This document shows positions 213 to 21,434 of a stretch of DNA of 64,000 nt, in pieces (the stretch's first letter is position 1; every line of letters begins with the position of its first letter). Below the pieces are notes generated by a model. That model had not been told where the DNA came from and searched no databases. It saw only the letters and a program-made list of their open reading frames with translations. Made by a program: the position numbers and the translations under genes. Origin of the DNA: Sphyrna mokarran (taxonomy: Eukaryota); assembly GCA_024679065.1 (NCBI GenBank), contig JAGIQG010000034.1:1674001-1738000 (forward strand). Direction: 5' to 3'.

Positions 213-506
213 CTCATTATGTGGAGCCAGTGTTGACTATGCAGACCAAGCAGAAGGACCTGGTTGGCGGACAGCTTGTGACAGTGAATTGCTCCTCGTG
301 GGGTGGCTACCCAAAACCAATCATATACTGGACTACCGTGAGCCCCGCGAGTGAAAACCGGACAGTGGAGAATCACGTACGTTGCTCTGGAGAGGGACTG
401 TGCAACATCACCTCCATCCTCTGGATCCACACGACATCAAACTTTGCTACCTGCTCCGTATACAACCCCAAGCTCCAGGAGAATAAAACTGCCACGTTAT
501 CTTGGA
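213..506 (+). CDS. B7-family (CD276/ICOSL-like) IgC-domain exon; upstream IgV exon lies outside the window
   Basis: tttag|CT acceptor (AG 211-212) and A|gtaagt donor (507), phase 1-1, 294 nt. Translates AHYVEP...KDLVGGQLVTVNCSSWGGYPKPIIYW...GLCNITSIL...TCSVYNPKLQE, matching the B7 IgC pattern (A-x-Y-x-x-P, C-S-S-x-x-G-Y-P, C-x-V-x-N-P). Confidence 0.88.
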
Positions 507-1536
507 GTAAGTGAAATGAAAAATATGTCCTTCCCCTTAGGGGGAAAGAGGCAGCCATGTGGGAGTCCTTGACATGTTGCGATTCCCTTCCTCAGTTTGA
601 TCACTCTCACTGTCCTGAACTTCCGGTGACCAGAGTTATTTGAGGAACATCGGGGGGGGTGGGGGTATCTAATCCTGTATTTGATTGATTTCATGTAGAA
701 AGTTTGAATAGTGGTCAAATAGTGGTTCCTGGAGCATTTAGATCTTGATCTCTTCCTGCATTCCTCTGAAAGTTAGGCCCTTCCTGTGTCCAGGGACACA
801 CAGGTTGGTTGTAAACACTGTCCATTACTTTCCTTGCTGAGATCAATTAATATCAAACAATGTGGGAAGGTCTCAGGTGAGATTCCTGATCTGTATAGTG
901 CAGTATCACATCCCACAAAGGGACTTGTATTGTCTAAACACCAGATGGTCATAGAATCCCACAGTACAGAAGGAGGCCATTCAGCCCATCGAGTCTGCAC
1001 CGGCCGCAATCCCAACCAGACTTTTTTTCCCATGCGTTTACCCTCGCTAGTTCCCCGTGACACCTTGGTGCAATTTAGCCTGGTCAATCGAGGAGTCTTT
1101 GCAGTGTGGGAGGAAACCCTTGCAGACATGGGGAGAATGTGCAAGCTCCACACAGACAGTGACCCAGGAATCGAACCCGGGCGTAGTGAGGCAGCAGTGC
1201 TAACCGCTGTGACACTATGAAGTCTCTGAACTCCAAATCGTTATTCATTACATACAGCATTTGGAGACATTCTGATAACATGATATGTTACTGTTTTATT
1301 TATTTGGGATTCAGTAGCGTTGCCTGTGGAGTTTTAATCCATTGTACCTAGGCAGAGTAGTGAGCTATTCAGATTCTTGCTGCTCCTCGTTCTACGCAGT
1401 GAGGTCACGCTTGATGGATTGGTTGAACTTGTTGTGACTCAGTAAATTTGACACTATGGAAATAGTGAATGGAGCTAGAATACTTTCTCTTGTAGAGCAC
1501 TTGGGACCTGTGAACAGGGCAAACACCTGTATACCT

Positions 1537-2352
1537 CATAGAACATAGAACACTACAGCACAAACAGGCCCTTCGGCCCACAAGTTGTGCCGATCACATC
1601 TATACTTACCAGGCCATAGAACTATCTGTAACTCCCAAAACCATTAAATCCCATGTACTCATCCAGAAGTCTCTTAAAAGACCCCAGCGAGTTCGTCTCT
1701 ATCACCACTGACGGTTCCATTCACTCACCACTCTCTGAGTGAAAAACGTACTCCTAACATCTCCTCTGTACTTGACCCCCAGCACCTTAAACCTGTGTCC
1801 TCTTGTAGCGACCATTTCAGCCCTGGGAAATAGCCTCCAAGAATCCACCCTATCTATTCCTCTCAACGTCTTACAAACCTCTATCAGGTCACCTCTCAAC
1901 TTCGTCTCTCTAGGGAGAAGAGACCTAGCTCCCTCAACCTATTTTCATAAGGCATGCCCCCCAATCCAGGCAACATCCTTGTAAATCTCCTCTGCACCCT
2001 TTCAATAGCTTCCACATCTGGCGACCATAACTGCGCACAGTACTCCAAGTGGGATCTGACAAGGGTCTTATAAAGTTGCAGCGTTACCTCCCGACTCCTA
2101 AACTCAATCCCTCGATTAATGAAGGCCAGTACACCATATGCCTTCTTGACCACATCCTCCACCTGCGAGGCTGATTTAAGAGACCTATGGAACCGGACCC
2201 CAAGATCCTTCTGCTCCTCAACACAGCTAAGACTCCTGCTCTTGATATTATACTCCTTCATCCCATTGGTCCTGCCAAAATGGACCACCCCACATTTATC
2301 CGCGTTGAAGTCCATCTGTCACTTCTCCGCCCAGTCTTGTACCCTATGTATG
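1537..2352 (-). mobile_element. CR1 LINE 3' fragment (same subfamily as 41876)
   Basis: ORF2 C-terminal peptides ([19 protein letters not shown]), shared 3' UTR and CATAGAA tail. Confidence 0.9.
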
Positions 2353-2634
2353 CCTTCTCTTTATCCATTTAGATGGAAGTATAGTGAAATGAAGAATGAA
2401 CTTTTTTTGCATGTTTAACCATGCCTATATTGCTGCCCGTTTTGTTGCTTTCGACTAAATTCCAGTCCGCCATTTACTTATCACGGATACTTTAGCATAA
2501 AAGTAAATTTCTAATCACGAGAGTAAACCCCACTCTGCTCATCACTGCTACCTAAATCCAAAGAATAGGTAAGAAAATATATCAGCTCGTGCATTCCTAT
2601 TTAATATCTGACTGATATTTTTGTTTTTCGACAG

Positions 2635-2781
2635 ATTCGTCACAAAACTTTCAGACGGAGACCACTCTCGCTGTCAGCGACACACATCACAGGTGGATTA
2701 TTCCGATAGCCTTAGTTACACTAATCGCTGCCGTTACACTGGTAGTTTACATTTCAATGAAATTCAGGACTTTTCTGAATG
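2635..2781 (+). CDS. B7-family gene stalk/transmembrane exon
   Basis: ttttgtttttcgacag| acceptor and G|gtaagt donor, phase 1-1, in frame with the IgC exon: NSSQNFQTETTLAVSDTHHR-WIIPIALVTLIAAVTLVVYISM-KFRTFLN. Confidence 0.85.
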
Positions 2782-20600: not shown

Positions 20601-20694
20601 AAATTTCTTGCTTGGCTTTAAGTGATTTGAACTTTTGCAAACTTCCTCAAATAAAAAGTGATCTCGTCCATCATCAGCATTTTGACACATTTCT

Positions 20695-21272
20695 GACCAA
20701 TTTTGTTCTCTGCATTCTTTCTTCCCCCCCCCCCCCCCACTTCACGGCGGACAGTATTGGTCCTTGCTGGGTGAAGTGACCACCCAGTGTTGACGCTAGC
20801 ACTGGAGATATTGCAGAATCTGATCAGGGTGGCAAGCCAGACATTCACTCGAACACTGTTTCCCCACCACCCCTAAAGTGACGGGGGGACAGATGCTGAT
20901 GTCCCTCACCAGTTGCTGCATGTGAGATGATTAAAAGCAGCGGCTGTTCGCAAGCTATTGATCTGTCAAAAAGTGTCCCAGTCACATCCCAATATCCAGG
21001 CAGTGAGACCGTAATCAGGAATGGTTTCTCTCTGACCACTGTCAAGTCCAGGAAAACCGGGAGCAGTCCCCGCTCTGCAGTGAAACTGGAAAAGTTACTT
21101 GTCCTGAATGAGCAAATCCACGTAGAGTTCTGCACCCACCTCCTGACCCATCATGGGAGATTTAGCAGCAGTTCCTGGTTAGTAAAGCAACTCCGGCTCT
21201 GCACTGCTCTAACTTCAGCCAACCGGGGCGGGGGGGGGGGGGGGGGGGGGGGGGGGAGCAGTAAAATTGGTC
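20695..21272. mobile_element. MITE-like element in the presumed 3' UTR of the receptor
   Basis: Perfect 10-bp inverted termini GACCAATTTT/AAAATTGGTC with inner poly-C and poly-G runs. Confidence 0.5.
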
Positions 21273-21317
21273 CATTCTGTTCCGTGTTTAGTCACTCGGG
21301 TTGCTTGTGAGTGTTCT

Positions 21318-21434
21318 TCACAGACCCTCCTGCCTGACCTCCGCGTACACCACGTCACCCACTGCCCTGCCTTTCGCATTTTCCACTGGCGATAAATTCA
21401 CAGCAGCGTAGCACACCTCCTCCTCAGGATGATT
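21318..21434 (-). CDS. Inhibitory VJ-IgV receptor exon 5 (terminal, two ITIMs)
   Basis: ctctttctgcttctttccccag| acceptor, phase 0: NHPEEE-VCYAAV-NLSPVENAKGRAVGD-VVYAEV-RQEGL*. Both motifs fit (I/V/L/S)xYxx(L/V), with tyrosines 21 residues apart. Confidence 0.85.
   Translation of the reverse strand, partial: NHPEEEVCYAAVNLSPVENAKGRAVGDVVYAEVRQEGL

What the first reader, a model, noticed from the sequence alone, without database searches (positions are those of the whole stretch)
213..21434. B7-family ligand gene tail-to-tail with the inhibitory V receptor: possible linked ligand-receptor pair
Seen: the B7-like gene (+) and the ITIM receptor (-) converge, with only repeats and unassigned sequence between their 3' ends. 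Known: B7 proteins bind single-IgV receptors (CD28, CTLA4, PD-1, NKp30), and both families are linked to MHC paralogous regions. Inference: an ancient checkpoint-like pair retained in cis.
Basis: inference. Interest (0 to 1): 0.7.

Follow-up and report, generated by a model that had tools for sequence, protein, structure and literature searches.

The report
Shark inhibitory receptor beside B7 gene
In this shark DNA a B7-family immune ligand gene ends 9.5 kb from a gene for a one-domain receptor with two inhibitory tyrosine motifs; the receptor is likely a shark relative of the NITR natural-killer-type receptors described so far only in bony fish, and the two genes are likely old neighbours rather than binding partners, which is untested.

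Summary
The geometry is confirmed. A B7 gene (+; IgC, TM and tail exons, stop at 11832) converges on a five-exon receptor gene (-; leader, germline-joined VJ domain, stalk/TM, two tail exons with tandem ITIMs; 59429-21318). The stops are 9,485 bp apart, with no further gene found between. Orthologues share a contig in Mustelus and Heptranchias (2 of 2 testable species; 10 other species yielded only one gene). The B7 is labelled 'CD276-like' but groups with ICOSL-like proteins. The receptor lacks the CDR3 and tail motifs of CD28-family members and PD-1. Its exon plan, J motif and tail resemble V-only NITRs, though it lacks the diagnostic I domain. A published bowfin NITR cluster also contains a 'CD276-like' gene. 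Best reading: an inherited B7 + NITR-like block, with the receptor acting as an inhibitory self-sensor whose ligand is probably not its neighbour. The more valuable lead is a candidate NITR relative in cartilaginous fish, where earlier work reported none.

The parts
213..506 (+). B7-family gene, IgC (C2-type) exon; IgV and leader exons lie outside the window
   Evidence: 82% to Mustelus XP_078093281
2635..2781 (+). B7 gene, stalk + transmembrane exon
11741..11832 (+). B7 gene, last coding exon (short tail with no tyrosine) and stop
11833..21317 (.). 9,485-bp stretch between the two stop codons: SINE/LINE remnants, unassigned DNA, predicted 3' UTRs (candidate poly(A) signals: + at 13255, - at 20475-20480)
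21318..21434 (-). receptor last exon with two ITIM-consensus motifs (VCYAAV, VVYAEV) and stop
25951..26012 (-). receptor first cytoplasmic exon (phase 1 to 0)
   Evidence: found by tblastn with the Heptranchias orthologue (weak, E 0.16); splice ends and phase fit; not confirmed by RNA
38800..38949 (-). receptor Ser/Pro/Thr-rich, cysteine-bearing stalk + transmembrane exon (no charged residue, no tyrosine in the TM)
58095..58451 (-). receptor germline-joined VJ-type IgV exon (two cysteines, J consensus FGxGTxL)
59393..59429 (-). receptor leader exon
31433..37740 (-). nested Myb/SANT-like gene (exons 37501-37740, 32512-32671, 31433-32352; 440 aa open, last exon not found) inside receptor intron 3
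   Evidence: Pfam PF13873 E 7e-10; model

Best explanation
A B7 ligand gene and a single-VJ-domain, two-ITIM receptor gene lie tail to tail here, likely as an inherited block in which an ICOSL-clade B7 sits beside an NITR-like inhibitory receptor, and they likely do not bind each other. Shown: gene structures, motifs, orthologues in sharks and rays, a shared contig in two sharks, and tree placement of the B7 away from CD276. Inferred mechanism: the receptor is a type I membrane protein of lymphocytes or NK-like cells. It probably dimerises through its antibody/CD8-like V faces and stalk cysteines and reads a self cell-surface ligand with its CDR loops. Its two tyrosines are then phosphorylated and recruit SHP-1/SHP-2 to damp activation (established ITIM biology, not tested here). 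The B7 protein would act as a co-signalling ligand for one of the CD28/CTLA4-type receptors that sharks encode elsewhere. The linkage would persist because shark and holostean genomes rearrange slowly.
For: Exon plan leader-V(J)-TM-C1-C2 equals that drawn for medaka NITRs without an I domain (PMC2442602 passages); V-only NITRs exist. The only non-chondrichthyan hits of the receptor searches were 5 teleost V+I proteins (3 of 7 hits; 2 of 6). Their second domain carries 6 cysteines in 4 of 5 (9 in my cut of the fifth), and I read them as NITRs (the sources do not name them so). They align with the Heptranchias orthologue from the J motif through both tail tyrosine motifs (27-28% identity). Tail-only scores against them: z 3.7-5.3 (window) and 3.7-7.8 (Heptranchias). 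Bowfin NITR genes are reported 'intermingled' with a CD276-like gene near runx1 and donson (bioRxiv 2021.06.11.448072); RUNX1, DONSON and ICOSLG all lie on human 21q22 (recalled). The shark B7 clade sits in a 98/96 clade with tetrapod ICOSL and bowfin 'CD276/CD80'-named proteins, apart from CD276; AU p = 0.038 against joining CD276, 0.40 for joining ICOSL. The V fold's top 50 matches are CD8, TCR and antibody V domains (Z 15.8-17.3). FR2 Gln/Pro and J Phe are invariant in 5 of 5 sequences. Known B7-receptor pairs in human are unlinked (recalled).
Against: The I domain, the diagnostic NITR feature, is absent. Only one V exon lies in 64 kb and one homologue per species was retrieved, whereas NITRs form clusters. 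The V domain alone does not favour NITR: antibody light-chain V domains score about 60 bits, NITR-type hits 54-67 bits, and NITR structures are not among the top 50 fold matches (inconclusive). Tandem ITIM tails are common (CD28HL3 has similar ones), and the NITR-type proteins were pre-selected by similarity. The bowfin CD276-like gene was not shown to be the orthologue of this B7, and runx1/donson are not in the window. By profile score the B7 is closest to CD276 (109 bits for mouse-length V+C, against 98 for ICOSL and 76 for CD80). The tree held no named CD80/86, PD-L1, HHLA2, B7-H4 or B7-H6, and its CD276 group was picked after a first tree was seen. The receptor shares an E-strand N-L-T glycan site and a G-strand GNG with CTLA4, which fits a B7-binding kinship.
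Confidence: 0.5

Rival explanations
1. Cis-linked checkpoint pair: the ICOSL-clade B7 is the receptor's ligand, and linkage keeps the two co-evolving.
For: Adjacent here; one contig in Mustelus (81,969,703 bp) and Heptranchias (20,256,265 bp); CD276-like gene amid bowfin NITRs. B7 proteins bind single-V receptors, including VJ-type NKp30 (established). CTLA4-like glycan site and GNG motif present. Linked receptor-ligand pairs exist in other families, such as CD200/CD200R and CD2/CD58 (recalled).
Against: No PPP/EIP CDR3 and no PD-1 motifs. Reported NITR specificity is for allogeneic determinants (PMC2814043 passage). The B7 was retrieved in 8 species where the receptor was not, and the receptor in 2 where the B7 was not; the searches are incomplete, so this is inconclusive. 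NITR synteny is reported lost in teleosts. A convergent layout shares no promoter.
Confidence: 0.15
2. The receptor is an independent elasmobranch VJ-ITIM lineage (for example a CD8- or NKp30-related offshoot). Its NITR likeness is convergent and the adjacency to the B7 is incidental.
For: No I domain, single copy; CD8aa is the top (tied) fold match; CD8-like Ser/Pro/Thr stalk with cysteines; automatic name 'CD8 beta chain-like'; ESM Atlas neighbours include CD8b-like, NCR3-like and PDCD1 clusters at 0.94-0.97.
Against: End-to-end collinearity with NITR-type proteins, including tail and exon plan; the same kind of B7 neighbour reported in bowfin.
Confidence: 0.3
3. The receptor is not made in full in this lineage: the nested Myb/SANT gene captures its 3' exons, so no ITIM-bearing receptor exists to pair with anything.
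For: The nested gene's last found exon ends in a GT at phase 0 and could splice onto the receptor's tail exons. The Mustelus RefSeq model runs from the TM exon into the repeat upstream of the nested gene and has no ITIM.
Against: All five receptor exons are intact, in frame and conserved with distant sharks and rays.
Confidence: 0.05

Closest known systems
V-only inhibitory NITRs (novel immune-type receptors) of teleosts, gar and bowfin
   Same: Leader-VJ-TM-C1-C2 exon plan, germline J consensus, ITIM + ITIM-like tail; a CD276-like neighbour reported in bowfin
   Different: No I domain; apparently single copy; longer cysteine-bearing stalk; found in sharks and rays, where NITRs were reported absent
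ICOSL (B7-H2) and the fish ICOSL-like/'CD276-like' B7 genes
   Same: IgV + C2-type IgC + TM + short tail; same well-supported clade
   Different: Separate chondrichthyan branch; one-to-one orthology unresolved; sharks have further paralogues of this clade on other contigs; no shark ICOS reported
CD276 (B7-H3)
   Same: Best profile match among solved structures; source of the automatic name
   Different: Tree separates the shark gene from true CD276 (AU p 0.038)
PD-1/PD-L1 and CD28-family (incl. CD28HL3) checkpoint pairs
   Same: Single IgV receptor with tandem tyrosine motifs; B7-type ligand
   Different: CDR3 and tail signatures absent, full J motif present; known pairs are unlinked (recalled)
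CD8 beta
   Same: VJ-type domain, Ser/Pro/Thr stalk with cysteines, top fold class
   Different: Longer tail with two ITIMs, which CD8 beta lacks (recalled)

Membership tests
B7 family (left gene) | IgV + IgC ectodomain, TM, short tail, B7-type similarity | tested here: met
   IgC/TM/tail in window; IgV in orthologue P0008; top PDB hits CD276, ICOSL, CD80, PD-L1
CD276 (B7-H3) | groups with vertebrate CD276 in a tree | tested here: not met
   (AU p 0.038; 37 chosen rows; group picked after a first tree)
ICOSL | groups with tetrapod ICOSL | tested here: inconclusive
   same 98/96 clade, but sister relation unresolved (AU p 0.40); no named CD80/86 rows
ICOSL | conserved neighbours of ICOSLG | not testable with these tools
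   no genome held; no marker genes in window
NITR | V and J in one germline exon, FGxGTxL | tested here: met
NITR | leader, V, TM and two cytoplasmic exons; ITIM + itim tail | tested here: met
NITR | I domain with six conserved cysteines (absent in V-only NITRs) | tested here: not met
   one Ig exon with two cysteines; no second Ig exon between V and TM; so filed as NITR-like, not as a member
NITR | multigene cluster | tested here: inconclusive
   one V exon in 64 kb; one homologue per species retrieved; DNA right of the window unseen
NITR | synteny with the holostean cluster (runx1, donson, OR genes, CD276-like) | tested here: inconclusive
   only the B7 neighbour is visible; its orthology to bowfin AMCP00014071 not shown
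CD28 family (CD28/CTLA4/ICOS/CD28H/HL1-3/X) | IgV-TM-tail with tyrosine motifs | tested here: met
CD28 family (CD28/CTLA4/ICOS/CD28H/HL1-3/X) | CDR3 PPP / EIP / [IAVL]P motif | tested here: not met
   no proline in CDR3 of 5 of 5 sequences against motifs
PD-1 | (I/V)(D/E)Y(A/G)(E/V)L(D/E)F and (T/V)EYATIx(F/Y) tail motifs | tested here: not met
   shark PD-1 is a different listed sequence
CD8 beta | short tail without ITIM (recalled) | tested here: not met
   two ITIM-type motifs in the window and 3 orthologues
B7 ligand-receptor pair | direct ectodomain binding | not testable with these tools
   needs a binding assay

The most novel reading that the evidence does not exclude
The shark gene is the single-domain ancestor-type NITR and its neighbour, an ICOSL-clade B7, is its ligand: a cis-linked inhibitory checkpoint kept since the last common ancestor of jawed vertebrates. 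This would give NITRs their first molecular ligand and tie a germline-joined, antigen-receptor-like VJ domain to B7 recognition.
Probability: 0.1. Interest if true: 0.85.

Novelty: new member of a known kind. Interest (0 to 1): 0.5.

Why it matters
NITRs are candidates for relics of the unrearranged VJ gene from which antibodies and T-cell receptors arose. The 2021 holostean paper cites a lack of evidence for them in cartilaginous fish and leaves open whether the family is older than neopterygians. A conserved shark/ray receptor with the V-only NITR plan, next to the same kind of B7 gene as in bowfin, makes that question testable with one synteny look-up and one tree. It also flags two misleading database names ('CD8 beta-like', 'CD276-like') and offers a possible shark ICOSL-clade ligand, although no shark ICOS is reported. 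If the two proteins do bind, it would be a B7-receptor pair linked in cis, which I know of no precedent for (recalled).

Tried and rejected
Complex prediction: verdict 'no answer', scores 0.21 and 0.28 against a mark of 0.34, controls not folded. The pair was cross-species (Mustelus B7 V+C with the Heptranchias receptor V) and the alignments were not used; it is evidence neither way. Sequencing runs: no RNA holder listed; no reads were laid, so splicing and expression are untested. No genome is held, so the B7 IgV exon and flanking genes were not seen; RefSeq accession numbers were judged uninformative for gene order. PDB sequence and Foldseek searches with the V domain were filled by antibodies. 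CD28, CTLA4, PD-1, NKp30 and NITR were not in the top 50 of the wide fold search, which excludes nothing. The ESM Atlas search of stalk + tail gave only scores up to 0.82, a lead at most. The profile search for more receptor orthologues added no new chondrichthyan species (only 7,999 candidates scored). The first B7 tree (107 rows) finished only as a quick tree. Earlier scan findings: nothing. Rejected: CD8 beta, PD-1, CD28HL3 and CD276 orthology (see membership tests). A candidate 37-nt exon near 28.4 kb, seen by eye, was dropped for wrong phase. The Myb domain had no PDB hit.

Full report
1. Observation. The window is repeat-rich shark DNA; half of it matches itself elsewhere in the window. 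The nearest protein relatives are from Mustelus asterias at 82-86%. No genome is held. On the + strand three exons (213-506, 2635-2781, 11741-11832) encode the IgC, TM and tail of a B7 protein, in one frame with canonical splice sites. On the - strand five exons (59393-59429, 58095-58451, 38800-38949, 25951-26012, 21318-21434) encode a 240-aa receptor. The small fourth exon was found only weakly (E 0.16) with the Heptranchias orthologue, but it supplies exactly the phase change needed. Whole-protein identity is 58% to Heptranchias, 52% to Hemitrygon and 51% to Mobula; these three carry V, TM and tail in one record. The stops are 9,485 bp apart. In that stretch 33% is repeated elsewhere in the window, there are 5 LINE fragments, 0 of 51 mostly unique frames of 50 aa or more hit Pfam, and no extra Ig exon was found among 1,670 six-frame segments of the whole window. 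Splicing and expression were not tested.

2. Linkage elsewhere. The protein collection gives the length of the contig that encodes each record. Receptor and B7 share that length in Mustelus (81,969,703) and Heptranchias (20,256,265). That is 2 of 2 species in which both were retrieved, out of 12 with either. Eight gave only the B7 (Cetorhinus, Carcharodon, Heterodontus, Rhincodon, Stegostoma, Scyliorhinus torazame, Leucoraja, Chiloscyllium) and two only the receptor (Hemitrygon, Mobula). This shows a shared contig, not adjacency; the gaps may be search or annotation misses. In Mustelus the model reads from the TM exon into the same repeat that follows the TM exon here, so that locus is built alike.

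3. The B7 gene. Databases call it 'CD276 antigen-like' (once 'ICOS ligand-like'). A profile of 7 orthologues ranks solved structures CD276 (109 bits), ICOSL (98), CD80 (76), PD-L1 (60). In a careful tree of 37 V+C stretches, which I chose from the session's hits, the 7 shark/skate orthologues form a 100/99 clade. That clade lies inside a 98/96 clade with caecilian, turtle and guinea-pig ICOSL, other shark paralogues and bowfin, gar, sturgeon and bichir B7s, apart from CD276 (100/99) (names; four CD276 rows are unnamed and assigned by grouping). Joining it to CD276 is rejected at AU p = 0.038; joining it to ICOSL is not (0.40). Caveats: the groups were fixed after a first quick tree, and no named CD80/86, PD-L1, HHLA2, B7-H4 or B7-H6 was in the tree. 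Verdict: ICOSL-clade B7, exact orthology open.

4. The receptor. The V exon includes a full J consensus; its AlphaFold model (pLDDT 88) matches CD8, TCR and antibody V domains equally (Z 15.8-17.3, rmsd 1.5-2.5 over 104-112 residues). The CDR3 has no proline in 5 of 5 sequences, whereas the CD28-family members listed in PMC11599192 are defined by PPP, EIP or related motifs. The tail does not fit the PD-1 consensus. The invariant CAGW motif is absent from the 9 supplements of PMC11599192 and the 6 of PMC12151841. In favour of kinship with B7 binders, it has a CTLA4-like E-strand glycan site and G-strand GNG. Outside chondrichthyans, the hits were 5 teleost proteins with V + six-cysteine I domains and ITIM tails, which I read as NITRs. 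They align through J, TM and both tail tyrosine motifs, and the exon plan equals that of V-only NITRs. The I domain is missing and the gene looks single-copy, and V-domain scores do not separate NITR from light chains. So it works like a V-only inhibitory NITR, but membership is not established.

5. The link to the literature. bioRxiv 10.1101/2021.06.11.448072 reports bowfin NITR genes intermingled with a CD276-like gene, with runx1 and donson flanking in bowfin and gar, and loss of this synteny in teleosts. It states that NITR homologues lacked evidence in cartilaginous fish and that the family's age is open. RUNX1, DONSON and ICOSLG are on human 21q22 (recalled), which fits an ICOSL-clade B7 in that block. 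Two Amia ocellicauda B7s of this clade share one 50.7-Mb contig; I could not show that it is the NITR chromosome.

6. Mechanism. Shown: architecture, motifs, conservation, tree position, shared contigs. Inferred: dimerisation through the V faces and stalk cysteines, a self ligand read by the CDR loops, ITIM phosphorylation and SHP-1/2 recruitment; the B7 serving a CD28/CTLA4-type receptor encoded elsewhere (sharks have two or three). I put this reading at 0.5, an independent VJ-ITIM lineage with incidental adjacency at 0.3, a true cis ligand-receptor pair at 0.15, and a truncated receptor at 0.05.

7. Papers seen. PMC11599192: parts 1-5 of 6, supplement 4 whole, term search of 9 supplements. 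bioRxiv 2021.06.11.448072: abstract, sections 3, 17, 18, 20 and passages; its figure 6 and supplements were not seen and bear on the bowfin gene order. Passages only: PMC12151841 (65, plus supplement search 99), PMC2442602, PMC2814043, PMC10751288, PMC13262535, PMC7916673, PMC13719162, PMC10768021. PMC12227049: abstract and term search. PMC8455134: term search, no hits. Ten library searches showed no description of this receptor or this linkage in sharks. The library lacks most subscription papers; the 2022 Dornburg and Yoder review was not held and the 2012 B7 evolution paper was not read, so prior description cannot be excluded.

8. Verdict. Real, convergent genes; probable ancient neighbourhood; ligand-receptor pairing unsupported beyond adjacency. 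The main value is a candidate NITR relative in sharks and rays. Novelty: new member of a known kind. Interest 0.5.

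Noticed in passing
window 37740-31433 (-): A Myb/SANT-like gene (PF13873, E 7e-10; 440 aa open over three exons; CpG-rich start, CpG o/e 0.92 against 0.41 for the window) is nested on the same strand in receptor intron 3. It resembles Harbinger-transposon-derived MSANTD genes (recalled). Its last found exon ends at phase 0: splicing to the receptor's tail exon 1 would stop after 5 codons; splicing to the ITIM exon would give a Myb protein ending in two ITIMs.
   Followed up: partly
P0001 (Mustelus XP_078094559): The RefSeq model of the receptor runs from the TM exon into the 17/34-bp repeat upstream of the nested gene and lacks the ITIM tail; likely a mis-annotation, and a sign that the nested element is shared with Mustelus.
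   Followed up: partly
P0010, P0020-22 (Heterodontus); P0027 (Leucoraja): Some orthologue models of this B7 carry a duplicated IgV domain (V-V-C or V-C-V), and Leucoraja has near-identical copies on three small scaffolds; real duplication or assembly artefact not checked.
   Followed up: no
P0045, P0070, P0103: Sharks and rays have a second group of ICOSL-clade B7 genes on other contigs (Heterodontus 44.1 Mb against 39.0 Mb for this gene's orthologue).
   Followed up: partly
window 2782-11740 (+): Several shark orthologues have an extra cytoplasmic exon in the B7 tail; no match to it was seen in the shown part, and the Mustelus model also lacks it.
   Followed up: no
window 41833-43386 (+): An uninterrupted 517-aa LINE reverse-transcriptase frame (CR1-like, recalled), with 44 related hits across the window.
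   Followed up: no
window 6962-7462, 36477-37434, 37916-38317, 40551-41262, 44791-45425: Tandem arrays (periods 59, about 50, 17/34, 11) and a long purine tract inside introns of the two genes.
   Followed up: no
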